Shown in pieces: positions 10,501-26,331 of a stretch of DNA of 64,000 nucleotides. The notes beneath the pieces are model-generated. The model worked only from the letters and a program-made list of their open reading frames with translations. It made no database searches and was not told the DNA's origin. The stretch spans positions 174,411 through 238,410 of the forward strand of contig BLSG01000411.1 in assembly GCA_012862495.1 (NCBI GenBank), given 5' to 3'. The position numbers were made by a program, and so were the translations under genes. Source of the stretch: Thraustochytrium aureum. Taxonomy: Eukaryota. The stretch's first letter is position 1; the number at the start of each line of letters is the position of its first letter.

Positions 10501-12706
10501 GGTCGCGGTCGGGTCTGGCGCGGGCACGGCGCAGCTTGTCGATTTCTTCGTCAAGGAGGCTGCTGCCTGCAGGGTTCTCGTCGAGACTTGCGTTCGCAAA
10601 CGCGGCGCCGGATGCGGCCACCTCGGTTCCACGGCGCTCCCGATGAAGCTTTATGGGAGACCCCTCGCTGGGGCGCAGTCGTGGCGCAAAGTTGACCGCC
10701 AGGGCGAGGCAGACGTAGGGACGTGGGTGAGGGCGCACGCTCCACACTGCAAGCGCGCCATCAATGTCGGCTGCGAGCAGGAGCGCAAACGGATCGACGA
10801 ACTGCAGGGCGAGGATGTCGCCTTCGTGGCCGATGCACTCGCCTTCAAGCCGAAGCTGCTGAAAGTCCCAGATGCGGATCATGTGGTCGGCCGAGCCGGT
10901 AGCGACCAAGGAGAGCCGATAGCTGAATGCACTGTGGGTCACTTGCGATTCGTGCACGTCGTGGGCCGCACGAAAGATGGGCAGCATGGCTCCGTCCGCT
11001 CGGTCGTCCACGTAGTCCTCGTCGAGGATGTATATGCTGTACGAGGTCACCGCAATCAAGCACTTGTCTGCGTCGTCGTAGTGCAGGCAGACAACGGTGG
11101 GGTCTGTGAGCGGGGAGGGCGCCGCCTCCGCCTCGGCCTCACCGGCCTTCCCGCCGCCGCTGTCATTTGACGAGGCGTGAAGGTTGTTCTGGAGCAAGGC
11201 AGACTTCATCACCGCGCCGTTGAGGGCGTTGAGGACCACGACGCGGCCTTCTGTGTTGCCGATAATAATCTTGCGCTTGCGGTCGTCGAAGCAGATGCTC
11301 GTGATTTCGGTGGCGGAGACGTGGTACCACTCCTCAATCATTTGGCCAGAGATGGCGCAGTAAACCTGCACAAAATTGCCGAGCGCGACGTAAAAGCGGT
11401 CCAGGACTGGGTTGAAGAGGGCGCCGAAGGGCATGAAGTGCTGCACGTATGTTGACACCGCTTCGTACAGGCGGATCTCGCGACTCGCCCCGAGGATGCG
11501 ACGCGGGCCGCACGCGACAAGCTTGCGCGGGCGATAGAGCCCGTTCTGCTGGTCTGCGAGAAAAGTGTGTCGGGCCTGCGTCTCGCCGTTCGGGGTGCGA
11601 TTCAGTTTCCAGAGCTTCATGATTCCGTCCGCATCGCACGTGATAGCGTGCTCCTCCTTGTCCTCGGCGTGCATGTAGGTGAGCTGAACGCCGACGCACG
11701 CGCAGGCGTGCCCGACGAGCTGCAGCACGATCTGCTTGGCGTAGACATCCCAGCAAAACACCTCGTGCTCGTACCCGGCGCTCAGTAATAAGTCGTGTGT
11801 CTCGGAGTACTCGAGGGAGCACACTGCGCGCCGGTGGCGCACGAGCTCGCCCTTGCTCGCGGTGCCGTCGAGGTCCCAGAGGCGGATCTTGGCGTCCATG
11901 CCGCCTGTCACCAACAGGCTATAGCGGCCAACTTCAGCAAATGTATTGACGATGCTGGTGTGGCCAGGGATGGAGCCGCGCGGGATGCAGATGCACGTGT
12001 TCTTGCCGGCAAAGAGCTTGATGCGCAGCTGCCAGAGCAAGATGACTCCCGAGTCGTCCGTCGTGTACAGCATCGACCGCGACGAGTAGAACATTTTTCG
12101 AATCGACTTGGTTTTGGTCCGCCCCAAGAACCGAAAGTCGTCCCACTGCCAGAACGTCATCGACAAGTTGGCACTGCACACGATCAGGAGATTCAGGTCG
12201 GGTGCGTACTCGACCCCGAGGATGGGGGACGTGTCGTCTTCGATCCCTGTCTGCAGGGTCCGCGCGAGCTTGAGCGTTTCTGCGTTCATGACGTGCACCT
12301 CGGAGCTGTTCGCTTCTACGGCCAAGACGGACCCCAGCGAAGCGAGATATTTGAGTTCAATCACGGTGTGGTGCGAGAGCGGGTCCCTGAATGATTCGTT
12401 TCGCTCGAAGTGCTCTGCGAGGGGCTTTTCGATGCGACGCGTCGCCAGCATACCGGCCTCAATGCAGTGCGATGTGAACTCCTCCCACTCGAGCTTGGCG
12501 TCGCCGTTCACGTCGATCTGCGTGAAAAGTTCGACCAGCTCCATTACCAGCTTGACCTGGCCTTCCTGGGTCGTTTCTTTTGGAAGGTACATGAGCATGG
12601 TGCTCACAAACTGGTCCATGTTGAGACCTTCGCCGTTCCCGCAGTCTCGGAACTTGGTCCTGAGCACGTCAAGCGAGGACGACGGCAGTCGCATCATCAC
12701 ATCCAT
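7505..12706 (-). CDS. EF-hand plus WD40 protein with C-terminal calmodulin-like EF-hands (WDR49/EFCAB8-like architecture); split by two frameshifts
   Basis: Three overlapping ORFs (12706-10190, 10353-8911, 9214-7505). N-terminal EF-hand QIDVNGDAKLEWEEF; WD repeats (TGGMDAKIRLWD, TGSADHMIRIWD, SGDKNGNIKEWD, TSSADGNVRVWD); C-terminal EF-hands DGDGSGKIDLEE, DDDHSGEISFAE, DKDGGGSLSLCE. Joining into one gene is inferred. Confidence 0.75.
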
Positions 12707-13398
12707 TTTTCCTGCGCGCTTCGGCCCGTCGGGCCAACCCCGTGCAAATCGCCAGTCCTGTTGCTTTCAGCGATCCGCGCGTGCAGCGGGGGCCTCGCGG
12801 GCTGCCAGACCCTGCACGAGCTCGGAGCTGCGCGAGGCGCCAGAGCCTGCACGCGCCTGCAGAGCTTGGACAGCGCGAGCCGCTTCTCGAGCTTGTTGCA
12901 AGCGGCTCGCAAGTGCGCGGCTCTCAAGTGCGCGAGCTTCGCGCGAGCCGCGAGGCGTCGCAAGAGCTATGCGCGAGCCGCAACTGCCGCGCGCTCAGCG
13001 GCGCTCTACTGCTTTGCAGAATCCAGTCTTCCAAGGCCAGGACGATCCAGCCCCGACCACGGTCGCGAGCCAGACAAAAACGAGGGCTCCGAATTCTGCA
13101 ACACACATGCGTAACGGATCGATTTCTTCTTCTGCTGTTCTGCTCGCAGGGATTCCATCCCGCGACCCTATGGGCCGGACGGAGCACGAGAAAGTGTCGG
13201 TTGAGCGCGTCAAGCCGCCCGCGTACCGGACACAACGCCGTTGAAGGCGCCGCGGCGCATCGTCCGTTGCGCGGTCGGGTAATGTTGTGGCGAGCTTCAA
13301 TGCGGCGCGGCAACACTTGTGAGACGCGCAGCACATGCATGCAAGAATGCAACAAGGCGCTTGCATGCAGGCGGCTTGAGCAGGCGCCCAACTGACGT

Positions 13399-13451
13399 AC
13401 CAGCAGCACCAGCAGCACCAGCACCAGCACCAGCAGCACCAGCACCAGCAG
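13399..13451. repeat. (CAG/CAC)n microsatellite
   Basis: cagcagcaccagcagcaccagcaccagcacc... in the divergent intergenic region. Confidence 0.85.
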
Positions 13452-13727
13452 CGGAAGCAGCAGTGGAAGCAGGCAGGGGCTTTTGTTGCGACAGACGGCT
13501 GCGGTCGGTTGAGGCGCACTTCTCGAGCATCGCAATACCCCACCAAGTCTGGCAGACGACTTGACTCAGGCGGAGGCAGCTTTGGTGCGCAGCTGGAAAT
13601 ACCTGCGCGGAGGGCTCGGCCTGGGCGAAGGCCGTGGGGGATATCGCAACTGGGAGAAAGGCGCCAGCGACGCGAAGGCGCAGACGTGGTCTGCGCGCTC
13701 AGGAGCGCGTAAAGCGCGACCGCAACC

Positions 13728-14921
13728 ATGTCGGACACGCAAGCCTACACATTCTCGTCCAAGCCGCAGGCCGTGCAGAGCCGTAAAGCGAAGGGCGGGT
13801 ACCGGCAGCAGCAGCAGCAGCAGCAGCAGCAGTTTGAAGATGGGGAGCCGGTCAACATCATGTTTGACCCGCGCGTATACCGCGGCAGCACATACTCGCG
13901 GCACACGAAGGACAAGCTGGTAGCGCAAGAGCAGGCCGCGCAAAAGCGAAAGATCGCCGCGCGCCAGCGCAAGGCCCGCGAGGGAAGCCAGGAGGCCCCG
14001 CAGTATGCGAGCGCAGACGAGGCACCCCCGCCCCTACCGGGCCGCAAGGACATGGACGTGCAGACAGACACATACTTGGAGGAACTCACCGACCGCGTCC
14101 CAGAGACCGAGATGGAGACCCAAACCGACGCGTTCATGGACAGGCCAGCCCTCCCGCTGTTTCTGCCGACAAAGACCGGGGTCGACGCGGAGACACAAGT
14201 CGACGTGGACGAACTCTTCGACTTTGACGCCGAGGTGGAGCCCATCCTCGAGGTCCTGGTCGGTAAGACGCTCGAGCACGCAATGATGGAGGTCCTGGAG
14301 GAAGAGGAGCTCGACGCGATCCGCAAGCACCAGCAGCAGTTTGAGCAAGAGCGCAACGTAGAGCGCGCGCAGGTGCAGCGGCTCGAGGCAGAGTCTATCC
14401 GACGCAACCAAGAGCGCAAGCGGCGGATTACGCAGGAGCAGGAGAGGCTGCAGCGCGAGGCGGAGGTAATGGACAAGGTCGCTGCGCGCGCGTTCGCATC
14501 CGACTATCTCGCGGACTTGCACAGCAACGTCTTCGACAAGCTCGTGGAGACTGGCCAATTCTTCGACCCGCTCATCAAGGAGGTGGAGGACTCGTTCCTT
14601 CCGTGGCTTATTGGGGCTGTGCAGCAGCGCAGTGACAAGCGCCTCGTGGCTCGCTCGCTCTTGGACGACTGCATCCGCGCCACGCTCGCAAAGGCCAAGG
14701 CAGAGATGGCCAAGCGTCGCCAGGCGGCAGAGGACCTCCGGCAAGCTGAGGAGCGTCGTATCGCAGAAGAGGAGGAGGAGCGACGCCGGGCAGAGATGGA
14801 GCAGGAAGACCTGGCTGGCGCTGTTGCTGGGGAGGCCGGCGAGGCTGAGGAGGGCGAGGGCGGCGCAGAGGCTGGCGGAGATGCCGCTGGCGGCGAAGAT
14901 GCTGAGGGCGGCGATGCGTGA
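13728..14921 (+). CDS. RSP3: Flagellar radial spoke protein 3
   Basis: NIMFDPRVYRGSTY, QTDTYLEEL, ELFDFDAEVEPILEVLVGKTLEHAMMEVLEEEEL, coiled coil and acidic tail. Confidence 0.95.
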   Translation: MSDTQAYTFSSKPQAVQSRKAKGGYRQQQQQQQQQFEDGEPVNIMFDPRVYRGSTYSRHTKDKLVAQEQAAQKRKIAARQRKAREGSQEAPQYASADEAPPPLPGRKDMDVQTDTYLEELTDRVPETEMETQTDAFMDRPALPLFLPTKTGVDAETQVDVDELFDFDAEVEPILEVLVGKTLEHAMMEVLEEEELDAIRKHQQQFEQERNVERAQVQRLEAESIRRNQERKRRITQEQERLQREAEVMDKVAARAFASDYLADLHSNVFDKLVETGQFFDPLIKEVEDSFLPWLIGAVQQRSDKRLVARSLLDDCIRATLAKAKAEMAKRRQAAEDLRQAEERRIAEEEEERRRAEMEQEDLAGAVAGEAGEAEEGEGGAEAGGDAAGGEDAEGGDA

Positions 14922-15215
14922 GCTTGGGCGCTTTTGCTCGGACTCGAGCTGTTTGTCCTCGTGTGGCAGGGCGCGCGGCACGGTGCCTCGGGTGAACGGC
15001 CGCTGTTGCTGCTGCGTGCGCCGCCTTTTGCAGTGTCTCCGTTTCTGTGTCTGCACCCCCAGCCCCCCCTCCCCGCTTGGCAGCGGGCCTTGATGATGCG
15101 CAACCAAGTACGTACGTACGATAAGAAATAGACTGCTCTCACAGTGTTGTACAAGTGCTTCTTGTTCGACGACCCAGGCTGTGCAGCCGCGACTGTTTCG
15201 AAACCCACCCCCTGC

Positions 15216-15290
15216 TCTACCCGACAAGGGTCTACCCGACACGGGTCAACCCGAGAAGGGTCTACCCGACAAGGGTCTACCCGACAAGGG
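15216..15290. repeat. Tandem repeat, 5 x 15 bp (TCTACCCGACAAGGG)
   Basis: Five consecutive units with 0-2 mismatches, between two convergent gene ends. Confidence 0.92.
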
Positions 15291-15332
15291 TCCGCCAAAT
15301 CCGTGCTGGCCTGCGACCACCAATCGACTCGG

Positions 15333-16233
15333 CTAGACGCAGACGCGCTTGCTCCTCTGCCCTCGGGCCGCCGCGACGGGCGGCACGCTGTCCAAGCTCG
15401 AAGGCGGCGTCGGCGCGGCTGGCGGCGCCTCGTCCTCGAGAAGGCCCTTCATCAGCCTGCCCATCCGCTCGTTCAAGGCAAGTAGTGCGTACTTGACCTT
15501 GCCGATCTCGCCCTTGAAGGCAGCTTGCAGCTGGGCGGGACTTGGGTTCGCGGCGTCGTCGCCTTTCGCGCAAGTCGCCGCCGCAAGCGCCGGGAGGCGC
15601 TCCTTGGCAAACGCCTCAAGTCTCGCGTCGACGATGGCCTCCACTTCGGCGGCCGTGAGACCCGTTTGTGGCTGCGGCTGCGGCAGCGGTGCGGCTGGCG
15701 CGACATCTGGCTCGGGGGCGTGGCGCTTCAACGTCTGCGCGGCTTGTGCGGCCCCAGCTTCCTTGCAAGCCACGCCCTCGCTTTCTGCTGCCTCCCCGAC
15801 GCGGGCCTGCTCCTCCTCGCCGGAATCTGTCGCGCGACGCTGCGCGTTAGCGGCGCCTGGCGCGAGCATGGCTGCGGGTCGTCCAAAGGGGCACTTACTT
15901 GGCTCCGCGTCCCAGGGCTTGACGGCGGCCACGACGACCTCGCAGCGCCTACCACTCAGGACCCCGACCTGGTTTTCGCAGCTGTCGCAAACAACAAACC
16001 CGTCCTGCACCGAGGTCAACTCGAGGTCTCCTGGTGAGCCGACCGCGCACCGCCTGTCAGGTCCGCTGCACGCGCTCGCTCGCACTTGAACCATGCCAAC
16101 TCGAGCACTTACGTTTGAACAACTTCGCGGCTTGCTTCCCGTCCCGGCGGACCCCGTGCCGCACGTTGACAGTGCCAACGACCTCGCCACAGTCGCGGCA
16201 TTCGAGCTCCTTCTGGGAGACTTGGCCCGCCAT
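15333..16233 (-). CDS. Yippee/Mis18-like zinc-binding protein with C-terminal coiled coil; exons 16233-16113 and 16030-15333
   Basis: Removing intron 16112-16031 (GTAAGT...CTGAC...CAG, 82 nt) gives an in-frame 272-aa protein with ECRDCGEVVG...VCDSCENQVG and the terminal helix EIGKVKYALLALNERMGRLMKGL. Confidence 0.6.
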
Positions 16234-17600
16234 CCCGCCCTCGCCCACCGACCCCGGACTGCCGTTGAGCAGCGCGCGCCTCGTCCCGACAAGGCAGAGG
16301 ACAGCGAAGGCTGCTTGCAACGAGGCCTCGGCTCGCCCCGCGCCCCGCCCGCGCCGCTGCGACTCTGCTCGAGGCCGCCGCCACGGAGTGTCCGACCCGT
16401 TCAAAAATGTGCGACCGCGGACTTGGCTGGCGTCGTGGGTCGTGAGTCGTGACCGCTGCGGTGGGGCTCTGCGCGGCGCCTGATCAAGCAACGAATGAAC
16501 CGCTTCACTCAGCAACAAACGCCGTCCTGCATGCGCGCGCCAAGGCGCCTGTCCCGCGGCTCGAGGAGTCCAACGAACGACGGCTGCTGCTGGGCGAGCC
16601 AGGCGTTGATCGTCCCGGCCTACGACGACGACCACGATGACGACGACGACGACGACCTCGTTGAGCTCGCTAGCTCGGTCGAAGAGAGCGAGCCAGCCCT
16701 GCCCAGCCAGCCAGCCAGCCAGGTGCAGGTCGAAGGTGCCGCAGGCGCGGGACCTTGCGCCACGTGCAGCACCCGATCGAGAGGAGCAAGACCGCACCGA
16801 GAAAGCGGGCAACCTAGGCGCGACTCGCGCGAGCGCCACTACACACTGGCGCCCGCCTCGCCCGCCGCGCGCCCTCCATCTGGCGCGCGGCGGCCGCGAC
16901 GCCGACCTCCGCGCACGCCGTCAACACTGCTCACGCAGACGGGCAACCCGCCAGCGCGGGGAAAACGTCCTCGGGCGGACTCAGGTACTCGGGAAAAAAA
17001 CCGTACGCTGCTGGGCCGGCCTCCACTTGTGCTCGGGGAAACGCGCGCGCGCCAGCGCCAGCCCCTCGCGCGTTCAGTGGCGCGCCTCGCCGGTCGTTAG
17101 CAGCATCCACGGTGCCAGCTGCGTGCGGTTTGCGCCACTGGCTTCCCGGGGGGTCCGTCCTCGCCTCGCGCGCTCTTGTCGGCGTAACACACTGCCCAAC
17201 GTGTCCTCGGATAAATTAAGAAATACACCGCGATGGTGCGTGAACTGCCGAAGTGCCGCGGCTCAAGTGTGCGAGCGGGCGTCGGTTGGATTCGGAGAAA
17301 GAGAGGGCGGCGCTGGGTTGGCCTTCGGTGAATTTGTGAGGCGGTCCGTCGGGCCATCTGCTCGCGAGGTGCGATTCACCGGCGCTGAGACAGAGAATAG
17401 AGAGAGACAGAGAGAGAGAGACAGAGAGGGCGCCCTCACACCCAACGTTTTTTCCCCCCCGCCCGCCCACACATCCCGCCAGTGAGGCGCCGCGCCAACG
17501 CCTCTGCCCCGCGCCGCCAGTCGATGTGAGCCGTTTCGAGTATGCGGTCAAGAGCCCCTGTTCCCGGCCTCCCCTCCTTGCATTGGAGCAGACCAGCCAA

Positions 17601-17770
17601 CAAAAACCACAAAACCCACAAAACAAGCACAAAACCCAAGTAAAACTCGAAACAAAAAAAGCAAAAAACCGCAGAATAACCACAAATCCTCAGTAAAACT
17701 TGAACAAAAAGCCCGAGTACCAAAGGGGCGGCTTTGAAAAAGAGAAACTGGAAAAAAAACGATAAAGAAA
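17601..17770. other. A-tract-rich, strand-asymmetric low-complexity intergenic segment
   Basis: Repeated A3-A9 runs, roughly 10 bp apart in 17602-17668. Confidence 0.7.
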
Positions 17771-18047
17771 AGGAGGGCGACTCGCAGAACAGCAAACAAG
17801 AAGCGGTCAGAGCAAGCGAGCAGGAGAGCAAGCGAGCAGAGCAGGAGAGCAGAGCAGACCTCGAGCGCGAAGAGCGGCAGGAGGAGGCCAGGAGCGAAGG
17901 CGGCACCTCGCGCGCGAGCAGCACCCTCGGCACCGTCGCCGGCACCATCGACATCCTCGGCAGGCGGTCGGTTGCGCCTGGGCGCCAAGTTGCGCAAGGC
18001 AAGATAGAAAGTGGTTGGGCTGGTTGAGCGAGGAGGCGCGACGGGAG

Positions 18048-18929
18048 ATGAGCCAGGACGAGGAAGCCGCGCAGCAGGCGATGGAGGGCGGCGCACAGGC
18101 GGAAGGGGATGGGTTGCACTATGCGGAAGGGGATTCCGTGCCGATTTCGGCGCAGGAGGGCGCCAGCACGCCGACGGCGAGCAAGCCGGCGGAGGCAGGC
18201 GACACCCCCGGAGCCTTCGACGGCAACCCGCTGACTAATGTTCGCAAGGCGTCCTGCGACATGTGCACGCAGATCAAGGTCAAGTGCTCCGGAGAGGAGC
18301 CGTGCAAGCGCTGCAACAAAAAGCAGCTCATCTGTGTCTACAGCCTCGCGAAAAAGCGCGGCCCACCAAAGGGCAAGAAGCGCACTGGCCCCTCCAAGCG
18401 CCAGCGCATCACCAACTCGAACGCAGTCCGCGTTGGGCCGACCAACTTCAACCCCAATATTTCCCTCGAGGCCCTGCGCGCCCGCATCCAGAGCTTTTCA
18501 GAGGACCGCCAGTGGGAAGGCTTTCACACCCCGCGCAGCCTTTTGCTGGCCATGGTGGGCGAGGTGGGCGAGCTCTCCGAGCTCTTCCAGTGGCGCGAGG
18601 ACGCGCGCCCGGGCCTGCCCGGCTGGCAGATCAAGGAGCGCGACCAGGTGGCGGACGAACTCGCGGACGTGCTCATCTACCTAATTCGCCTCTCGGACCG
18701 CTGCGGCATCGACCTCGGCGACGCTGCCATCAACAAAATACAGAAGAACGAGATCAAGTTCCCCAAGGAGAAGGTCAGGGGCAACCCGCTCAAGCACACC
18801 GCGTACGTTGGTAGAACCCACATCAGCGAGGCCGCCGCTGCCGCCGAGGCCGACGCTGTAGCGCAGCTGCAGACTGGCGGCGTGCCGCAGATGTCCGACA
18901 TGAACATGGATAACACTCGGGCGATTTGA
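18048..18929 (+). CDS. Zn(II)2Cys6 zinc-cluster domain fused to a dCTP pyrophosphatase 1 (MazG-like) domain
   Basis: CDMCTQIKVKCSGEEPCKRCNKKQLICVY (CX2CX6CX5CX2CX6C) plus KKRGP, then FSEDRQWEGFHTPRSLLLAMVGEVGELSELFQW...DELADVLIYLIRLSDRCGIDL...KIQKNEIKFP in the same uninterrupted frame. Confidence 0.92.
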   Translation: MSQDEEAAQQAMEGGAQAEGDGLHYAEGDSVPISAQEGASTPTASKPAEAGDTPGAFDGNPLTNVRKASCDMCTQIKVKCSGEEPCKRCNKKQLICVYSLAKKRGPPKGKKRTGPSKRQRITNSNAVRVGPTNFNPNISLEALRARIQSFSEDRQWEGFHTPRSLLLAMVGEVGELSELFQWREDARPGLPGWQIKERDQVADELADVLIYLIRLSDRCGIDLGDAAINKIQKNEIKFPKEKVRGNPLKHTAYVGRTHISEAAAAAEADAVAQLQTGGVPQMSDMNMDNTRAI

Positions 18930-19202
18930 AACGAAAACAATTCTGTTTCAGGATGTGCGCAAGTCCTCCATTACTACACGCAAACTGGTGCCAGGCGAAG
19001 CAAAGCAACAACAAACGGTATCAATCAAAACTGGAAAAGAAAGAATCGTGTACTCTTCACGCAATCTCGCCAAGCGCGGGTGCGGGGCGTGCTCTGACGC
19101 GTCGCCCGTCCGAGAGCCTCCTCTCGCTTGCGCAAACAAACAAACGAAAACAAAAAAGCGAACGAGGAGGTGGCCGACCGGAGGCGTCCTCGAGGGCCGG
19201 CC

Positions 19203-20849
19203 TCAGCTGTCCCCAAAACTGCGCGCCACGAGCTGCCGCCGCTGTCGCGCATCAAGCTGGTCCAAAACCCGAGCCCGCCGCGCTTTGACGGCGACCCCGC
19301 GGCCCGCGCAGCCGCGCGTCCAACGCTGAATAGTCAGGCAGGCCCGCTCGCGAGCAAAGTCCCACTTGTCCTTCATGCGGCGGTAAACCTTGAGCTTGGT
19401 GTGGTACGCCAAAATTCGCGCTCGCCAAAATTTCTGGATTCGCTCGGCCGCCCTGCCGCGCTCGCCAAGCATCAGGCCGAGCTGGCGCCTCGCAGCAAAC
19501 CCGCGCCACACGGCCTGCGCCGCAACGGCTGCGTCTACTTGTTCCTCGCGGCGCCGGACCCGGGCGTCAAACGCGACGACCCGAGCGAATGCCTGCACGC
19601 GCCGTACCGCCACGTCCCGCACAGCGTACGACGTCCAAGCTCGTACAGCTCCGCCAAGAGCAACCTCGCGCCAATGATCCAGAAGCTGGCCAAGGGCTCT
19701 GCGGGCCAGGCGGCGCCGACGCGCAAAGCGCTCCCACTCGCGAAGCGCAGTCAAGCCTTGCCTCTCGCGGCGACGGAAACTCGCCTGAAGGAACAACTCC
19801 TCGACGCGGTTCGCCAGCCTGCGCTGAAGGAGCGGAAGGTGGACCTGGCGCGGCGTCAATTGCGCTTCCCAAGCGCACAATAGTTTTGGAACAAAAACGC
19901 CCCCAAGACCAACCTGCTCTTCGTACTCCGGGTCGTGGGGGCGATACCCGGGCTGGAAGAGGTCTGGGAAGCCCTTCTCAATCATGAGGCGCAAGTCCGC
20001 GCGCCCGACGCGGCACTTGACCCGGTCGGAGAGCGGGACCCACACCTTCCAAGCCGCCTCGGCGCGCTGCAGGGCGCTTTCTAGCTGCGCAGAGCTCAAA
20101 ACGCCGATGGTCAGAAGCATGCGCCACTCCTCCTTTTGGACGTGCGACGCGCCAAACACGGAGAACAAGTCGCCGCAGAGCCGGTCAACCGCCGACTTGC
20201 TGCTCCCGAGCAGCAGCTTGCATGCAGCGACCAGCTCGCGCGCATCCAGGGCGTCCAGCTGGTGCACGACCAGGCCAGAGCGGTGGTATTGCATCGCTGC
20301 AAAGCAGTCAAATAGTTGCGCCGCATCCGAGCTACTCAAGCGCGCTCGGGACCGGACCAGACCCACAAACGCCGACTTTGAGATCCGCCCTGTCACATCC
20401 ACGAGGTCGCGGCCGGCTGCCCGGAAGCGGCTTCCAGGACCTTGCTCCTGTCCAAGCGCGTGGTCCCATCTTTTTTGCGTCGCGCTTGAAACGCTCGAGG
20501 TCAGCTCGGGCTCGAGCCTGCGAAGCTCGCTGGCAACATCGCCGCCTAAATCCACCAGGACCTGCCAGCGCCGCATCGCAAAGCTCTCGAGCCGGCTGCG
20601 CAGCTTTTCATCGCGGGCCTGGGCAATCGCCTCCAGCTGTGGCTTTGCAGTCCGCACGAGCACCTCGCGCCTGGCCTTCAGCTGCTCCACGCGGCCTCGT
20701 TCGCGTTTGTCGAGGTCGCGGTCGAAGACTATCCACGGCACAAACGGGCCGCCGCCGCTCGCCGACGACGCCGTCGCAAGGGCGCCAAGGCGTGGCCGCC
20801 CGCGCTGCGGCGAGCGGGGGCTGTGGTGGCCCTTGCTCTTGGCGGCCAT
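19203..20849 (-). CDS. IQ calmodulin-binding motif protein
   Basis: 548-aa ATG-initiated ORF with IQ-like motifs VQAFAR, AQAVWRGFAARR, IQKFWRA and IQRWTRGCAGR; possible degenerate EF-hands in the middle. Confidence 0.7.
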   Translation of the reverse strand: MAAKSKGHHSPRSPQRGRPRLGALATASSASGGGPFVPWIVFDRDLDKRERGRVEQLKARREVLVRTAKPQLEAIAQARDEKLRSRLESFAMRRWQVLVDLGGDVASELRRLEPELTSSVSSATQKRWDHALGQEQGPGSRFRAAGRDLVDVTGRISKSAFVGLVRSRARLSSSDAAQLFDCFAAMQYHRSGLVVHQLDALDARELVAACKLLLGSSKSAVDRLCGDLFSVFGASHVQKEEWRMLLTIGVLSSAQLESALQRAEAAWKVWVPLSDRVKCRVGRADLRLMIEKGFPDLFQPGYRPHDPEYEEQVGLGGVFVPKLLCAWEAQLTPRQVHLPLLQRRLANRVEELFLQASFRRRERQGLTALREWERFARRRRLARRALGQLLDHWREVALGGAVRAWTSYAVRDVAVRRVQAFARVVAFDARVRRREEQVDAAVAAQAVWRGFAARRQLGLMLGERGRAAERIQKFWRARILAYHTKLKVYRRMKDKWDFARERACLTIQRWTRGCAGRGVAVKARRARVLDQLDARQRRQLVARSFGDS

Positions 20850-21229
20850 CAGAGGTGGCCGCTGCCGCGAGCATTCAACAATGGGCGATCGATCGATCGC
20901 ATGTGGGAGTTAGAGCCGTTCGGGGTGGACACATGTGCGCTCCCCCGACCTGCCAACCTACTTTGCGGGCCAATGCGATGAAGGACGCACGAGCCGAGTG
21001 CCTTGCGCACAGGACGCGTGGCGGGAGGGAAGAGGGCTCGATCGGATGGGCGCGCGACTCCACGCCAGGACAACAACGGTCGGTCGGCGCGCGAGATTAG
21101 TTCAGACCTCCAGCTCGAACGTTTGTGCGCACGGGGCAAGCAGGAATGCAATTGGGAGCTTTTGAGTTGGTTACAGGGATAGGAAGGCAGCCGCGGGAGC
21201 TCGCACAGACGCCAAGGCGGCGATTCGAG

Positions 21230-23158
21230 CTACCGAGTCTTGATGCGTTGCGTCCACTGCTCTGGCGCCAGCATGATCCGCTGCGAGGCCTCCTCAAAAG
21301 TGAGCTGCTCGCGCAAAATGTCACGGGCAGCGTCGAGGAGCTCGCTCGCGTTGCAGCAGAGGATACCAACCACAATGTTGTTGCGAAGGTAGTAGACGAT
21401 TCCGCGCTCGAAGGCGGTCTCTGGCAGGGGCCGGCCAGTCTTGTCGTCTCGCTTTGAAAGCCAGATCCCTGTGCTGCTCAAGTTGGAGTTGATCTGACCC
21501 ACAGCCTCAAAGAGCATCCCCGTGCCCGGCATGATGCAGCGAAACGTGGGCTGGTGGTAGTAGCGGCGCAAGCGCCCGTCCTCGCTGACCATGTTTTGGC
21601 CCGCCAAGAGCCCCGAGTTGAGAGCGTTGTCGTAAAAGTCGACGCGGCGGCGGCCCAGGATGGCGTCAAAAAACGACGCGGACGAGCCGGCCACGAACAG
21701 TCCGTTGTAGGCCTCGAGGCTCGAGTTGCACACAATTCCACCGTTGCGCCGGTCGATCTCCAGGTGGCTCGCCTTGGCGATTTCCACGTCGGGGCTCACG
21801 TTCGTGCTGGCCAGCACCACGTAGTCACAGTCCAGGAGCTCCTTGCACGTGCCCTGCATCAGCGTCAGCTTGACACGCTCAGCGTCGTGGTCCTCGTAGG
21901 TGTGGGACGACGTGTGCCCTTCAGGGAGGTCCTCCTCCGGGGTGCCATCGACATTGGCGCCGGGCGCGCGTGCCGCAAACCCGCGCGTAGAGCACGTGCC
22001 GTCGCCTTCGTCGCCGTGGTAGTCAGAGAACTCGCCCGTTCGTGTGACGGACGTCACAAGCGAGTCTGGCAAGAGCTTGACCCCTTTCGACTCTAGCTGC
22101 TCCGCGATGTGTTTGCACAGGTAGTCTGGAAAGTACTGCTGCAGCGGCGTCGACTCCACAAATGTCTGCACGATTTCATTCGGCGTGCTCACCTCAAGGT
22201 TCATCTCAGCCAGTGCCGCGCAAAGCGTGGTCCCCAAATAGCCGCCCCCAACGACGACCACCCGTTGCCCGCCCCTGGAAACGACGCGGTGCAGGTCGTG
22301 AAAGTCCTGCACGTCCTTGAGCGTGTTGATCTTGTCCTTGAGCGTGTAGGAAATGCTAGAGCGCAGCACGTAGAGCTCGCGCGGTTTGCCGGGCGGCGCC
22401 AACAGGCACTTGCCGTACGAGAGCACGCTGCCGTCGGACAGGGTGATGGTCTTCTCTTCCGGGTTGATCTGCACCTCTGACGAGTCCTCGATGAGGACCG
22501 AGACCGAGTGGGCCGTCTCATTGCCGCCCCTGCTGTGGTCCTCGCCCTGCGAGTTGCGCCGCGTCCCCCACTTGCGCACGTTGGTGGCGGAAACCGAGGC
22601 GGGATCCGTCGCCGCGCCGCCGCCGCCACCGCCGCCGCCGCCGCTCCCGAAGCTCGAGTGCTCGTCCGAGCCGAGCCTGCAGGCGATGTGGCGTCGCCAC
22701 TCGTTGTAAACGTCTTGCAGCAGGTCTGGGAGGAAGTCTGCGCCCCATACATCCATGTCCATCCGCTGGATGTGCTGCTCCTCTGAGATCAGCAAGATCG
22801 AGGCGTGCGGCTTGGACTGCCGAATCGCCTCCAGTGCCGTGAATGCGGCCGTCCCCGACCCGCAGATCACATACTCGTAGTGGTGGATCGCAGGCCGCGG
22901 CCTTGAGTTGACTCTGCGCCGCGTCATGGCAATGCCGCCCATCTCCAGCGCCTCGTCCTCTGCCTCTCCGACCACCGTAGTGGCCCCGCGCATCGCCGCC
23001 CAGCCCAGCACGCCGGCAGCCGCGCCTCCGGCAGCAGCAGCGCGCCACCGGCCGTTCGTCTCCTGCCTCGCCTCGCCCATCCACATCGACCTCGTCGCCC
23101 ATCTTCGCGCCGCGCCGTAGGCCGCCATCCGCGCGGCGCCGCCGCGTCGGGCCCACAT
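21230..23158 (-). CDS. Apoptosis-inducing factor (AIFM1)-like mitochondrial flavoprotein, divergent
   Basis: Arg-rich presequence-like start, short hydrophobic segment, YVICGSGTAA, VVVGGGYLG, LGRRRVDFYDNALNSGLLAGQNM, FEAVG and RGIVYYLRNNIVVGIL match the AIF layout. Confidence 0.82.
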   Translation of the reverse strand: MWARRGGAARMAAYGAARRWATRSMWMGEARQETNGRWRAAAAGGAAAGVLGWAAMRGATTVVGEAEDEALEMGGIAMTRRRVNSRPRPAIHHYEYVICGSGTAAFTALEAIRQSKPHASILLISEEQHIQRMDMDVWGADFLPDLLQDVYNEWRRHIACRLGSDEHSSFGSGGGGGGGGGAATDPASVSATNVRKWGTRRNSQGEDHSRGGNETAHSVSVLIEDSSEVQINPEEKTITLSDGSVLSYGKCLLAPPGKPRELYVLRSSISYTLKDKINTLKDVQDFHDLHRVVSRGGQRVVVVGGGYLGTTLCAALAEMNLEVSTPNEIVQTFVESTPLQQYFPDYLCKHIAEQLESKGVKLLPDSLVTSVTRTGEFSDYHGDEGDGTCSTRGFAARAPGANVDGTPEEDLPEGHTSSHTYEDHDAERVKLTLMQGTCKELLDCDYVVLASTNVSPDVEIAKASHLEIDRRNGGIVCNSSLEAYNGLFVAGSSASFFDAILGRRRVDFYDNALNSGLLAGQNMVSEDGRLRRYYHQPTFRCIMPGTGMLFEAVGQINSNLSSTGIWLSKRDDKTGRPLPETAFERGIVYYLRNNIVVGILCCNASELLDAARDILREQLTFEEASQRIMLAPEQWTQRIKTR

Positions 23159-23329
23159 TCCCCTCTGCCTGAGCCCGCCCGCCGCCCGCCGCCGGCCCAA
23201 CCGACGACGCGTCCCCCCGGCCTGCACGCCGACCTACCCAAGGAACGCCGGCGCGCCTTTTTCAGCCACGCGACCCTGGCGAACACGGGCGCGGCCGCCC
23301 TCACCGCTATCCTGCGCGCGCTCCACTTG

Positions 23330-23612
23330 CCCGCCTGCCCGCCTGCCTGCCTGCCCGCCTGCCTGCCTGCGCGCCTGCCTGCCTGCCCGCTGGTCGTTGC
23401 GCGACTGCTGTTCGAGCCCCGACAGACTGTACTCTTGATCTTGAAGGGATAGTGAGTAGGATCCACTTGCGAGATGCGTCCCGTGGCGAGTCTGGCTGGC
23501 TGGCTGGCTGGCTGGCGTCGCGCGGGCGGGCGGGCGCCGCTGGCGGTCGTCGTCGGTTGGAACGGAGCGGGCCGGTCTTTGGCAGCTTGCTTTGCGGAGC
23601 ATTTTCTGGACG

Positions 23613-23646
<34 letters not shown>

Positions 23647-23655
23647 ACGGCTGGA
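23330..23655. repeat. Cluster of (GCCT)n and (GGCT)n tetranucleotide microsatellites
   Basis: gcctgcctgcct at about 23330-23390; ctggctggctgg at about 23492-23515 and 23613-23650. Confidence 0.8.
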
Positions 23656-24323
23656 CGGCATGCTGCAAGGGTGCTCGAGCGAAGAGCAACTCCAACGCGC
23701 GGCGCGCTCGAAGGTGCAGGTACTTCAAGTGCTTGCTCTCTCTCTCTCTGTCTCTACTTGCCGAGCTAGAGCTCTAGAGCTTGAGTACCGGTACCTGGAC
23801 TTGCGCCCGCTGCGCCGGGATGCTCTGGCGACGGCGCTGGCGGCCATCGTGATGTCGTTGGGATGGAGCGGGCCCAGCGGCGGGGACCGGCTGGGGCCGG
23901 GCGCTGCGCGGGGCTCGTGCAGCAAGCTGCATCGAGTCGCGCGCTGCAATCTGCATCAAATCGAGCGCTCGTGAGACGCGAGCCTTTGTCTACATGAGAC
24001 GAGACGGCTAGCAGTGCACGCAGGGGACCGAAGGCTGGGGAGCCACGCGTTGCCAGCCCCCGAAAAGCGCGATGCCAGCGCTCGCCAGCGGGAAACCCCA
24101 GGAAGCTGAGCGGCGTCTCTTGCGCGCGAGCCACCCGAGCAAAGACCACGCGGCTGTTCGATGTGTCCGCCCTGGCAGGGCGGAGGAGGACGCGATGATG
24201 TGACGCAGTGCACTGACGAGAGTGGTTTGGAATGCGGCCAGCCCAGGGGCGGAAAGGCGCTTCTGCATCCGCTGATGGCAGTCTGGCTTCAGAGCAGGCA
24301 GTCGTCTGAAGAGCAACTCATCA

Positions 24324-24368
24324 CCACTGCGTCCACTGCGTCCACTGCGTCCACTGCGTGCACTGCGT
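24324..24368. repeat. Tandem repeat, 5 x 9 bp (CCACTGCGT)
   Basis: Read directly, about 45 bp upstream of the ATG at 24412. Confidence 0.9.
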
Positions 24369-24411
24369 GCAGGACGCCCTCGACCAGGACGAGCGCAACA
24401 AAGCAACGGGG

Positions 24412-25944
24412 ATGGCGGACACACTGGAGTTCGGCGCAGCCGGGTCCTCAGAGACCGTGAAAGCCGTGCTTGCAGACGGCCTGCGCGCCGCGGGCCACCT
24501 GGAGCAGGCCGACCGGCTGGAGAAGGAGAAAAAATGGAGGCTCAAGTACACGGAGCACCTTATTGAGCTGCAAAAGCTCATGCTGGCCGACCCCGCGGAC
24601 TGCACGGTGATCGCCAAGGCGGCGCTCAAGAGCTTGCACTCGCGGATGCTTTGGAAGGGGATCCCACTCGAGCAGGTCAAGCCGACTGCGCACAACTTCA
24701 ACACACAAGTTGTGCAAGGCAGCGGGGCGAACCCCGCCGCCTTTGTGCTGCCTGTCCCAAAGCACAGCGCGGCAGCGACGGCCACCGCATCGGACCGAAG
24801 CGCGCAAGTGCGCCACTTGTCCGAACCCGGGGCCATTCTCGCCGAGGTGGAGCGCTGGGTAGAGCGCGGCATTTGCGAGCCGAGCGTGCTGGATGCCATG
24901 CGTGCGTTCCTGACCGAGAGCCGCTTCCGCGACTTTTCGCGGGACGCATACGTGTGCCTTGGCGCGGGGTCCGAGATGGGCGCCGCCAGGACGCTGCTGG
25001 CGCTCGGAGCCACCGTCGTCGCCATCGAGCTGCCCGGCAAGGAGGCAGTCTGGGACCACTTGGTGGAGATTGCGCGCAAGTCCGCCGGCCGCCTTGTGAT
25101 CCCCGTGCAGGCGGACGGACGCCGCGGGGCGGACATCATCAAGGACCTCCCCAACCTCATGGCTTGGCTAGCCGAGTGCGAGCCCGAGCGCCGCCTCATC
25201 ATCGGCTCCTATCTGTACCTCGATGGCGCCAAGTTTGTCAAGCTCGCTGCGGCCGCAGACCGACTCAGCTCCGCCCTTCTCGAAGCGCGCCAAGACACTG
25301 TGCTCGGGTACTTGTGCTCCCCCACAGAGGCATTTTGCGTGCCAGAGAAAAATGCAGCCTGGGCAAAGCAGCGGTTCGAGGGCGAGTCTCGGTTGCTCGA
25401 CCTCGCGCTGCGCCGCGTGCCCACCGCGCTCGAACCAAACCGGCCCGAGCCTGCCACGCAGAGTGGCCTTCTCTTGCAAGACTGCTATACTAGCGAGCAA
25501 GGACCAAACTACGCGGTGGCCAAGCTGGTACAGCGCTTCCGCACGATTGCCGAGGGCCCGCGCCGCGCCATTGCCAACGTGGCCCCGGCGTCGCTCACAA
25601 ACTCTGTCATGCACATGTGGATTGTCAAGGTTGGCATCCTGGGCTGCGAGCGATTTGGGATCGTCCCCTTCCTGCCCGAGACCTCGAACGCGATCATGAC
25701 GGCGCTCCTGGTGCACGATGCCAACACGCTTGACGACCCAGCCATTGCACAAGCTGCGGCTGCCAACCCGTTCTTGATGTTCCAGAGATCTGCGGTCCAT
25801 GGCGGGACTTGGACGTCTGCTTTCAAGACGTCGTCTACGACGCGGATCTCTGTACTCGTGCACTTTCTCAACATGCTCGACTCTGCGCCAGCCAAGGCCA
25901 GCTTGGCGCTTGCTCTCGGAGCGGCGATCTCCTCGCGCCTCTGA
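24412..25944 (+). CDS. Uncharacterised Rossmann/SDR-like protein
   Basis: VCLGAGSEMG Gly-rich loop followed by LLALGATVVAI; QGPNYAVAK (YxxxK); NVAPASLTNSV; HGGTW; hydrophobic C-terminus. Confidence 0.7.
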   Translation: MADTLEFGAAGSSETVKAVLADGLRAAGHLEQADRLEKEKKWRLKYTEHLIELQKLMLADPADCTVIAKAALKSLHSRMLWKGIPLEQVKPTAHNFNTQVVQGSGANPAAFVLPVPKHSAAATATASDRSAQVRHLSEPGAILAEVERWVERGICEPSVLDAMRAFLTESRFRDFSRDAYVCLGAGSEMGAARTLLALGATVVAIELPGKEAVWDHLVEIARKSAGRLVIPVQADGRRGADIIKDLPNLMAWLAECEPERRLIIGSYLYLDGAKFVKLAAAADRLSSALLEARQDTVLGYLCSPTEAFCVPEKNAAWAKQRFEGESRLLDLALRRVPTALEPNRPEPATQSGLLLQDCYTSEQGPNYAVAKLVQRFRTIAEGPRRAIANVAPASLTNSVMHMWIVKVGILGCERFGIVPFLPETSNAIMTALLVHDANTLDDPAIAQAAAANPFLMFQRSAVHGGTWTSAFKTSSTTRISVLVHFLNMLDSAPAKASLALALGAAISSRL

Positions 25945-26331
25945 ACGCCTCTGAACCGATGAAGCCGAGGCCTGCTAGTTGCGCAGTGCATTCTCGCTTG
26001 TGGCCGTGCTGCGCGGGCCCCGAGAGCGCAGCGAGCACAGCGAAGACTGCCGACCACTGCCTGGCGTGCGGTACATGACCAACACCTCCAAGTAACTATG
26101 AACCTCAAAAACGTCCAAAAGTCCTGCCGCATCGCCCGCAGCTTTGAAACGAGAGCAGGCCAACGCCCTTGCCAGCTTTACATCCGAGCCTGCGCGGCGA
26201 GCCAGCGGAGGACCGGGCTCTCGCGGCTCTTGTCACGACTAGCAGCCTCAAGCGCCTTGCTTGCTCGAGAAAAAGAAGGCCAAAAACATGGCTTCCGCGT
26301 CCGGCAACACCACCGCCTCCACCAGTCCCGG

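What the first reader, a model, noticed from the sequence alone, without database searches (positions are those of the whole stretch)
18048..18929. Zn2Cys6 DNA-binding domain fused to an intact dCTP pyrophosphatase
Seen: one gap-free ORF with a canonical six-Cys zinc cluster (18255-18335), a basic linker and NLS-like stretch (KKRGPPKGKKR...KRQR), and a full DCTPP1-like domain with the acidic metal ligands (GEVGELSE, DELAD). Known: Gal4-type clusters bind DNA, usually as dimers; DCTPP1 is an oligomeric MazG-fold enzyme that hydrolyses dCTP and 5-modified dCTPs. I do not know this fusion from characterised proteins. Inference: either a one-component transcription factor that senses dCTP or modified dCTP and oligomerises through the enzyme domain, or a nucleotide-sanitising enzyme tethered to chromatin.
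Basis: partly seen in the sequence, partly recalled or inferred. Interest (0 to 1): 0.88.

Follow-up and report, generated by a model that had tools for sequence, protein, structure and literature searches.

The report
DNA-binding zinc cluster on dCTP pyrophosphatase
A marine protist makes one protein in which a Gal4-type zinc cluster is joined to a dCTP-destroying enzyme domain, a fusion kept in related thraustochytrids and paralleled by homeobox and trihelix fusions of the same enzyme in green algae and a liverwort, so it is likely a gene regulator that would use the enzyme domain to assemble and to sense cytosine nucleotides.

Summary
18048-18929 (+) is one 293-codon ORF with a six-Cys Zn2Cys6 cluster (Pfam E 1.4e-8) and a full DCTPP1 domain (E 1.8e-36 to mouse DCTPP1). 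In two runs that contain spliced mRNA, one unspliced contig spans the whole ORF. Four other sequence clusters carry the same fusion with the metal ligands intact (named: Hondaea, Mucochytrium). A fifth keeps the zinc cluster but has lost the ligands. The cluster (77% mean identity) and its basic tail (83%) are better conserved than the enzyme domain (57%), and keep Gal4's base-reading Lys18. No Gal4-type coiled coil is predicted; a four-copy model places every confident contact in the enzyme domain. New here: the same enzyme is also fused to a ZF-HD-type homeobox across chlorophyte algae, to a trihelix domain in a liverwort and to BED-like fingers. Best reading (0.5): a DNA-binding regulator that oligomerises through, and likely senses (modified) dCTP with, a still-active enzyme domain, like bacterial NrtR. 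A DNA-tethered house-cleaning enzyme is the main rival. DNA binding, catalysis and coupling are untested; whether the genome has a stand-alone DCTPP1 could not be checked. Four literature searches for such fusions returned no description of one.

The parts
17868..19033 (+). Extent of the longest transcript contig (unspliced; includes 5' and 3' untranslated parts)
   Evidence: Run X2 record spans 17868-19033, run X3 17873-19015, no joints here. Contigs cannot give the true start, end or strand.
18048..18929 (+). Single-exon CDS, 293 aa, Zn2Cys6-DCTPP1 fusion
   Evidence: GC3 0.84 overall and 0.74-0.91 in each part; 3 of 3 differences inside the CDS in the runs are synonymous third positions.
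18048..18230 (+). Acidic, low-confidence N-terminal region (aa 1-61); candidate activation or low-complexity region (inferred)
   Evidence: pLDDT under 50 for 1-66; 20% Asp/Glu here, 18-27% Gln in the five homologues; about 21% identity between homologues.
18255..18335 (+). Zn(II)2Cys6 binuclear cluster, C70-C96; Lys77 (18276-18278) aligns with Gal4 Lys18
   Evidence: Pfam PF00172 E 1.4e-8; best PDB match Gal4 1d66, E 1.8e-4; loop T[QRA][IL]KVK in 6 of 6 fusions.
18351..18407 (+). Basic tail KKRGPPKGKKR...KRQR (aa 102-120): likely DNA-backbone/minor-groove contact and nuclear localisation signal
   Evidence: KKRGPPK invariant in 6 of 6 fusions; 83% mean identity over aa 101-112 among ligand-intact members; role inferred by analogy with Pho7 (PMC6265462).
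18441..18797 (+). DCTPP1 (MazG-fold dCTP pyrophosphatase) domain, aa 132-250
   Evidence: E 1.8e-36 to mouse DCTPP1; W156, H160, E172, E175, W182, E204, D207, Y211 kept; I147 and F238 replace His38 and Tyr129; carries all confident contacts of the four-copy model.
18798..18929 (+). Variable C-terminal tail and stop codon
   Evidence: 0-42% identity between homologues; mostly pLDDT under 50.

Best explanation
This is one expressed protein joining a Zn2Cys6 cluster to a DCTPP1 domain, and it is likely a sequence-specific transcription regulator whose enzyme domain is predicted to supply the dimer/tetramer interface and would act as a sensor of dCTP or C5-modified dCTP. Shown: the fusion, its transcript, its conservation, the kept catalytic and DNA-reading residues. 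Inferred, in order of falling support: (1) the cluster and its basic tail bind DNA, probably a CGG-type half-site through Lys77; (2) the DCTPP1 domain replaces the missing Gal4 coiled coil and presents two to four clusters on flexible linkers of about 35 residues; (3) the enzyme still hydrolyses dCTP-type substrates; (4) nucleotide binding or turnover in the pocket, which is built from two subunits, changes DNA binding or transcriptional output, as ADP-ribose does in NrtR. Target genes are unknown.
For: Single transcript. Same architecture in four further clusters, with Hondaea fermentalgiana GBG28001.1 and Mucochytrium quahogii named, both Thraustochytriidae. Mean pairwise identity among the five ligand-intact proteins: cluster 77%, basic tail 83%, linker 27%, enzyme 57%; unrelated clusters from metagenomes reach only 34-59% to the query, so the DNA-binding part is under its own constraint. 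Gal4 Lys18, its only base-contacting side chain (PMC6265462, passages), is Lys in 6 of 6. No helix is modelled after the cluster (102-135, pLDDT under 50). Four-copy model: score 0.90, best of 3 controls 0.50, runs agree in at least 77% of contacts, pLDDT at least 69, named contacts all within 132-247; the mark was reached by 21 of 30 solved pairs and 0 of 23 single chains (eukaryotes 17 of 29 and 0 of 30); DCTPP1 tetramers are solved, so the pass may be from memory. P0129 keeps the cluster (68% identity) and KKRGPPK but has E63>K, E66>A, D98>N, H51>Q, the pattern seen in NrtR, where many members have lost catalysis (PMC2330246, passages). The same enzyme is joined to a ZF-HD-type homeobox in chlorophytes (11 of 234 representatives; PDB 1wh5 E 3.7e-8), to a trihelix domain in Calypogeia (E 5e-16) and to BED-like fingers (3, below the Pfam cut-off).
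Against: No DNA-binding, enzyme or ligand data. The dead homologue is a single unnamed sequence with no relative found and could be a decaying copy or a poor gene model. Five of six fusions keep all four acidic ligands, which fits an ordinary working enzyme equally well. The variable linker (C6 to the FHxPR motif 60-97 residues) gives no obvious path for allostery. Gal4 Arg15 and Lys17 positions are Thr and Ile/Leu, so affinity or specificity may differ. The AlphaFold model is poor (mean pLDDT 51, 6 sequences), so the absence of a coiled coil is weakly shown. DCTPP1 is also fused to non-DNA-binding partners (methyltransferase, KH, L22, PIN) and I have no null model for enrichment of DNA-binding partners. 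No nucleotide-metabolism gene cluster surrounds the gene.
Confidence: 0.5

Rival explanations
1. A house-cleaning enzyme tethered to DNA: the zinc cluster and basic tail serve as a nuclear or chromatin anchor that concentrates dCTP pyrophosphatase where DNA is made or repaired, without regulating transcription.
For: Catalytic residues kept in 5 of 6 fusions. Human DCTPP1 accumulates in nuclei of tumour cells (PMC4491611, passages). Any DNA-binding domain would do as an anchor, which would also explain fusions to several unrelated ones. No stand-alone DCTPP1 with a thraustochytrid name appeared among the 103 hits of 161-513 aa, though shorter proteins were not searched and many hits are unnamed.
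Against: A plain anchor need not keep the base-reading loop almost invariant. A tether with a dead enzyme (P0129) has no purpose. dNTPs diffuse fast (general knowledge), so tethering gains little over a nuclear localisation signal. N-termini are Gln-rich or acidic.
Confidence: 0.25
2. Two uncoupled jobs in one chain: a transcription factor that borrows DCTPP1 only as an oligomerisation scaffold while the enzyme does its ordinary work, with no sensing.
For: Long, variable, low-confidence linker; no modelled contact between cluster and enzyme; P0129 has lost pocket residues as well as metal ligands, which fits a pure scaffold; small stable oligomer domains are easy to recruit (inference).
Against: The nucleotide pocket is built across subunits (Trp73 from an adjacent monomer, PMC13291643 section 5), so ligand binding and assembly are physically linked; repeated recruitment of this particular enzyme is more than a generic scaffold would predict (inference, no null model).
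Confidence: 0.21
3. An artefact or neutral accident: mis-assembly, read-through of two genes, or a recent non-functional fusion.
For: None found.
Against: One ORF, no N in it, single transcript contigs, same fusion in independent genome and transcriptome records, synonymous-only variation.
Confidence: 0.02

Closest known systems
Mammalian DCTPP1 / RS21-C6 (PDB 2a3q, 6sqw, 7mu5)
   Same: Homologous over the whole catalytic domain (E 1.8e-36); Trp sandwich, His51, Asp98, Tyr102 and the acidic motifs kept; homo-oligomer predicted.
   Different: No DNA-binding domain in the solved proteins; His38 is Ile and Tyr129 is Phe in this copy; activity and substrate range untested.
Fungal Zn2Cys6 regulators (Gal4, Ppr1, Put3, Leu3; monomeric Pho7, AlcR)
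   Same: Canonical Cys spacing, Lys18 equivalent, basic segment after the sixth Cys.
   Different: No coiled coil modelled and no fungal TF effector domain found by Pfam; an enzyme follows instead; host is a stramenopile by homology. Zn2Cys6 proteins outside fungi are known and of varied architecture (PMC5611559, passages).
Bacterial NrtR (Nudix hydrolase + winged HTH)
   Same: A house-cleaning nucleotide pyrophosphatase domain joined to a DNA-binding domain; family holds both active and inactive members (PMC2330246, passages).
   Different: Unrelated folds on both sides (MazG all-alpha and zinc cluster against Nudix and wHTH); eukaryotic; effector and regulon not shown here. A functional analogy, not membership.
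Hondaea fermentalgiana GBG28001.1 and Mucochytrium quahogii EP00516_P009884
   Same: Same architecture, 50-60% identity over the matched part; likely orthologues.
   Different: The Hondaea record is annotated only as 'dCTP pyrophosphatase 1'; no characterisation was found.
Chlorophyte DCTPP1-homeobox proteins (Polytomella A0A7S0YF31, Bryopsis GMH41438.1, Caulerpa g5111, Myrmecia WJX72_005627)
   Same: DCTPP1 with intact acidic ligands fused to a transcription-factor DNA-binding domain, with Gln/Pro-rich flanks.
   Different: ZF-HD-type homeobox, placed C-terminal; another supergroup; also undescribed as far as reach.

Membership tests
Zn(II)2Cys6 DNA-binding domain | C-x2-C-x6-C-x5-12-C-x2-C-x6-8-C motif, above the Pfam cut-off | tested here: met
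   C70-C96; PF00172 35.1 bits against cut-off 21.
Zn(II)2Cys6 DNA-binding domain | Base-contacting residue at the Gal4 Lys18 position | tested here: met
   Lys77; Lys in 6 of 6 fusions.
Gal4-type dimeric Zn2Cys6 transcription factor | Coiled-coil dimerisation helix after the linker | tested here: not met
   No helix at 102-135 in the model, but pLDDT there is under 50; sequence is Gly/Pro/Asn-rich.
Gal4-type dimeric Zn2Cys6 transcription factor | Sequence-specific DNA binding and control of transcription | not testable with these tools
   Needs SELEX/DAP-seq/ChIP and a knockout.
DCTPP1 (dCTP pyrophosphatase 1) | Full-length homology to solved DCTPP1 | tested here: met
   E 1.8e-36, residues 114-275.
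DCTPP1 (dCTP pyrophosphatase 1) | Four acidic Mg ligands (E63, E66, E95, D98; their role as metal ligands is recalled, not from a call) | tested here: met
   E172, E175, E204, D207; conserved in 208-212 of 212 non-fusion rows.
DCTPP1 (dCTP pyrophosphatase 1) | Cytosine pocket: W47, W73, F41, F50, I101, Y102, Y129, H38, H51 | tested here: inconclusive
   7 of 9 identical; H38>I (His in only 7 of 212 relatives) and Y129>F (3 of 212), which loses an alpha-phosphate hydrogen bond.
DCTPP1 (dCTP pyrophosphatase 1) | Homotetramer | tested here: inconclusive
   Model supports self-association (0.90 against best control 0.50), but may reflect solved relatives; not a measurement.
DCTPP1 (dCTP pyrophosphatase 1) | Hydrolyses dCTP and 5-modified dCTP | not testable with these tools
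   Needs an assay.
NrtR family | Nudix domain plus C-terminal winged HTH | tested here: not met
   Pfam finds Zn_clus and MazG only. Works-like claim only.

The most novel reading that the evidence does not exclude
DCTPP1 is a repeatedly recruited nucleotide-sensing module of eukaryotic transcription factors: thraustochytrids (Zn2Cys6), chlorophyte algae (ZF-HD homeobox), a liverwort (trihelix) and an unnamed lineage (BED finger) each built a one-component regulator that reads the dCTP or modified-dCTP pool directly at promoters.
Probability: 0.3. Interest if true: 0.88.

Novelty: new variant of a known kind. Interest (0 to 1): 0.7.

Why it matters
Enzyme-plus-DNA-binding one-component regulators are common in bacteria and, to my recollection, rare in eukaryotes. 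A DCTPP1-based one would tie the cytosine nucleotide pool, including methylated dCTP, directly to gene control. The recurrence of such fusions in separate lineages suggests a property of DCTPP1 that the mammalian literature has not examined, and the test is cheap: thraustochytrids and green algae are genetically tractable and the protein is small. It also gives a handle on what Zn2Cys6 proteins do outside fungi, which PMC5611559 names as an open question.

Tried and rejected
No whole genome is held for this window, so a stand-alone DCTPP1, DNA methyltransferases and candidate target promoters could not be searched; within the 64 kb window there is no second copy. A metagenome scan with the fusion alignment gave 16 loci, all generic zinc clusters, 0 of 16 with a DCTPP1 domain nearby: no synteny information. 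A region search on the cluster alone returned only 3 known fusions among 9 candidates. A search for relatives of the dead homologue P0129 returned only itself among 145 candidates. Proteins shorter than 161 or longer than 513 aa were not covered, and only the best 150 of 5801 hits were seen, so further or more degenerate fusions may exist. The Atlas gave only stand-alone DCTPP1/MazG clusters for P0004 and P0192; it searches clusters of 50 or more only. No listed run is on record as RNA; their RNA nature rests on the intron joint. Uncovered stretches are not used as evidence. The domain tree (56 chosen rows of 246, 119 columns) is mostly unresolved: the six zinc fusions need 3 changes, one origin is not rejected (p-AU 0.54), and holding them with the trihelix fusion costs 36.9 log units but is not rejected at 0.05 (p-AU 0.067); so independence of the fusions rests on different domains, positions and hosts, not on the tree. 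A quick tree's grouping with Vitrella was judged noise. The taxid written in P0002's source name resolves to a basidiomycete; as P0002 is 97% and 84% identical to Hondaea in the two domains I treat that as a source error and do not count it as a named taxon. A SAP-like motif in P0156 seen by eye got no Pfam support and is dropped. His38 loss as a fusion-specific change was rejected. Supplements of an Aurantiochytrium proteome paper held no matching term (4 text files). The primary paper on the Schizochytrium zinc-finger repressor LipR is not held; citing papers call it only a zinc finger protein, so identity with this family is not excluded by a call (its binding site as I recall it looks C2H2-like).

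Full report
Observation. Pfam places Zn_clus at 69-104 (E 1.4e-8) and MazG-like at 172-242 (E 2.7e-8), both above their curated cut-offs. The best solved relatives of the whole protein are mouse and human DCTPP1 (E 1.8e-36 and 1.7e-30); for residues 60-125 alone the best is Gal4 (E 1.8e-4). The window is eukaryotic and intron-poor, with radial spoke 3, AIF-like, gamma-tubulin complex, GCN1 and PheRS genes around; the neighbours scanned show no pyrimidine-pathway cluster. That the host is a thraustochytrid-like protist is inferred from the homologues below.

One transcript. Three runs of one study hold the stretch; none is on record as RNA. Laid on 8900-28800, all three skip a GTAAGT..AG intron in the next gene upstream (16031-16112, minus strand) and show a second joint beside it, so they contain spliced RNA. 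In X2 one contig covers 17868-19033 and in X3 one covers 17873-19015, with no joint inside the ORF; X1 covers it in overlapping pieces. The three differences inside the CDS are all synonymous third positions (3 of 3).

Conservation. Of 103 hits of 161-513 aa, the top four carry both Pfam domains. Their clusters include Hondaea fermentalgiana GBG28001.1, Mucochytrium quahogii and marine-protist transcriptome records; both named species are Thraustochytriidae. The exhaustive search added P0129. In all, 5 of 234 representatives hold the six-Cys motif; the two sets are clustered at different levels, so these are not species counts. Among the five ligand-intact proteins mean pairwise identity is 77% in the cluster, 83% in the basic tail, 27% in the linker, 57% in the enzyme domain and about 20% in both termini. 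Unrelated clusters pulled from metagenomes match the query at 34-59%. The recognition loop is T[QRA][IL]KVK in all six; its first Lys aligns with Gal4 Lys18, the only Gal4 side chain that touches bases (PMC6265462, passages). Gal4's Arg15 and Lys17 are replaced by Thr and Ile/Leu.

Enzyme domain. Using the numbering of PMC13291643 (passages and section 5), the query keeps F41, W47, F50, H51, W73, D98, I101, Y102 and the acidic E63, E66, E95 (that these four acids bind Mg is recalled). It differs at His38 (Ile) and Tyr129 (Phe). Of 253 stored proteins, 246 had a long enough domain; after removing labelled fusions and their cluster mates, 212 remained, and only 7 of these have His38, so that change says nothing about the fusion. 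Phe129 occurs in 3 of 212, and the other four intact fusions keep Tyr, so this copy may be slightly weakened. P0129 has K, A, E, N at the four acidic positions, Gln for His51, and ends early, while its cluster is 68% identical to the others. It is one unnamed sequence seen on two contigs, with no close relative. End branches of the fused enzyme domains are long (0.50, 0.56, 0.92, 1.85 against a median of 0.27; the close pair P0002/P0004 0.03 and 0.19), which may mean faster change or thin sampling.

Assembly. Most Zn2Cys6 factors dimerise through a coiled coil after the cluster; Pho7 and AlcR bind as monomers. The AlphaFold model shows no helix between residues 102 and 135, but it is of low confidence overall (mean pLDDT 51). 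A four-copy model of residues 62-254 scored 0.90 against a best control of 0.50, with at least 77% shared contacts and pLDDT of at least 69; all named contacts lie in 132-247. The mark was reached by 21 of 30 solved pairs and 0 of 23 single chains (eukaryotes: 17 of 29 and 0 of 30); the calibration used two copies, and DCTPP1 tetramers are solved, so this shows likeness to them and not that this copy binds.

A wider pattern. Reading the DCTPP1 hits showed other fusions. Eleven of 234 representatives carry a C-terminal homeobox-like domain, eight of them complete; a profile of nine such proteins matches the ZF-HD homeobox structure 1wh5 at E 3.7e-8, and one passes the Pfam Homeodomain cut-off. 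Named carriers are Polytomella, Caulerpa, Bryopsis and Myrmecia. Calypogeia fissa has a trihelix (Myb_DNA-bind_4, E 5e-16) N-terminal to DCTPP1, nested among plant-type sequences (99/91); it rests on two gene models of one species. Three unnamed ENA proteins form a clade (100/100) with a BED-like finger below the cut-off (E 0.007-0.02), and a skink protein has a similar weak match. All of these keep the four acidic residues. Against this, a Pfam scan of 90 further hits with flanks of 60 residues or more found no further DNA-binding domain, and non-DNA-binding partners occur too: a methyltransferase in Rhodosorus, KH, ribosomal L22, PIN. I have no null model, so enrichment is not shown. The tree neither rejects one origin of the zinc fusions (p-AU 0.54) nor formally separates them from the trihelix fusion (p-AU 0.067); separate origins are inferred from the different domains, their positions and their hosts.

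Mechanism. The anatomy is that of a transcription factor: low-complexity acidic or Gln-rich N-terminus, conserved cluster and basic tail, then an oligomer. I put 0.5 on a regulator that assembles through DCTPP1 and senses cytosine nucleotides with it, 0.25 on a DNA-tethered house-cleaning enzyme, 0.21 on a regulator that uses the enzyme only as scaffold, and 0.02 on artefact. The closest worked precedent is NrtR, a Nudix pyrophosphatase joined to a winged HTH, in which ADP-ribose weakens DNA binding and many members have lost catalysis (PMC2330246, passages); the folds are unrelated, so this is analogy.

What is in print. Searches for Zn2Cys6 with dCTP pyrophosphatase (0 papers), homeodomain with MazG and green algae (0), homeobox with dCTP pyrophosphatase (9, unrelated by title and abstract start) and MazG/DCTPP1 with fusion terms (3, prokaryotic or phage by title) gave no description; on thraustochytrid regulators were seen as listings only. 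A green-lineage homeobox paper has no 'MazG' or 'pyrophosph' in its main text (PMC6219170, term search; supplements not read). Zn2Cys6 proteins outside fungi, including stramenopiles, are known (PMC5611559, passages). The library lacks most subscription journals, the LipR paper was not available, and supplementary domain tables that I did not see could list these architectures. The architecture is visible in public database records, where it is annotated as plain dCTP pyrophosphatase. Earlier notes of this scan held nothing on this sequence; one noted a sirtuin fused to a Zn2Cys6 cluster, an unchecked parallel for the tether reading.

Verdict. A real, expressed, conserved and apparently undescribed fusion; a new variant of the enzyme-plus-DNA-binding regulator type, made more interesting by parallel fusions in the green lineage. 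Function is inferred, not shown. Interest 0.7.

Noticed in passing
P0015, P0031, P0033, P0132, P0147, P0167, P0174, P0192 (and truncated P0019, P0146, P0197): DCTPP1 fused to a C-terminal ZF-HD-type homeobox ending in FFNNRKPK, in Polytomella, Caulerpa, Bryopsis, Myrmecia and unnamed records; worth its own study.
   Followed up: partly
P0204, P0250 (Calypogeia fissa CAM6093629.1, CAM6126819.1): Trihelix/Myb-SANT domain fused N-terminal to DCTPP1; gene models only, transcript support not checked.
   Followed up: partly
P0013, P0022, P0024; P0201 (Tiliqua scincoides): BED-like zinc finger N-terminal to DCTPP1, below the Pfam cut-off; three unnamed ENA proteins form one clade.
   Followed up: partly
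P0129: Zn2Cys6 fusion with a degenerate, shortened DCTPP1 domain: candidate pseudoenzyme transcription factor; single sequence.
   Followed up: yes
P0006-P0008, P0012, P0118-P0122 and others: Tandem two-domain DCTPP1 proteins in Hydra, Clytia, Fibrocapsa and others, in several cases with one domain degenerate.
   Followed up: no
P0065, P0083, P0206 (Rhodosorus); P0188; P0214; P0104; P0101: DCTPP1 or MazG joined to a methyltransferase, a KH domain, a weak RanBP2-type finger, a PIN domain, and (by eye only) a DNA-glycosylase-like domain.
   Followed up: no
P0009-P0011, P0136, P0144, P0162, P0176, P0183, P0191 and others: Many protist DCTPP1 homologues end in a hydrophobic stretch that looks like a membrane anchor (by eye).
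   Followed up: no
window 15333-16246 (-): Small gene with two introns (joints at 15823/15899 and 16029/16112), spliced in all three runs; the 253-aa ORF 15333-16094 has no Pfam match.
   Followed up: partly
window 24412-25944 (+): 510-aa ORF covered by contigs of the runs, with no Pfam match at E 0.1.
   Followed up: no
window 30282-32147 (-): 621-aa eukaryotic ORF with a PqiA domain match (E 2.4e-8).
   Followed up: no
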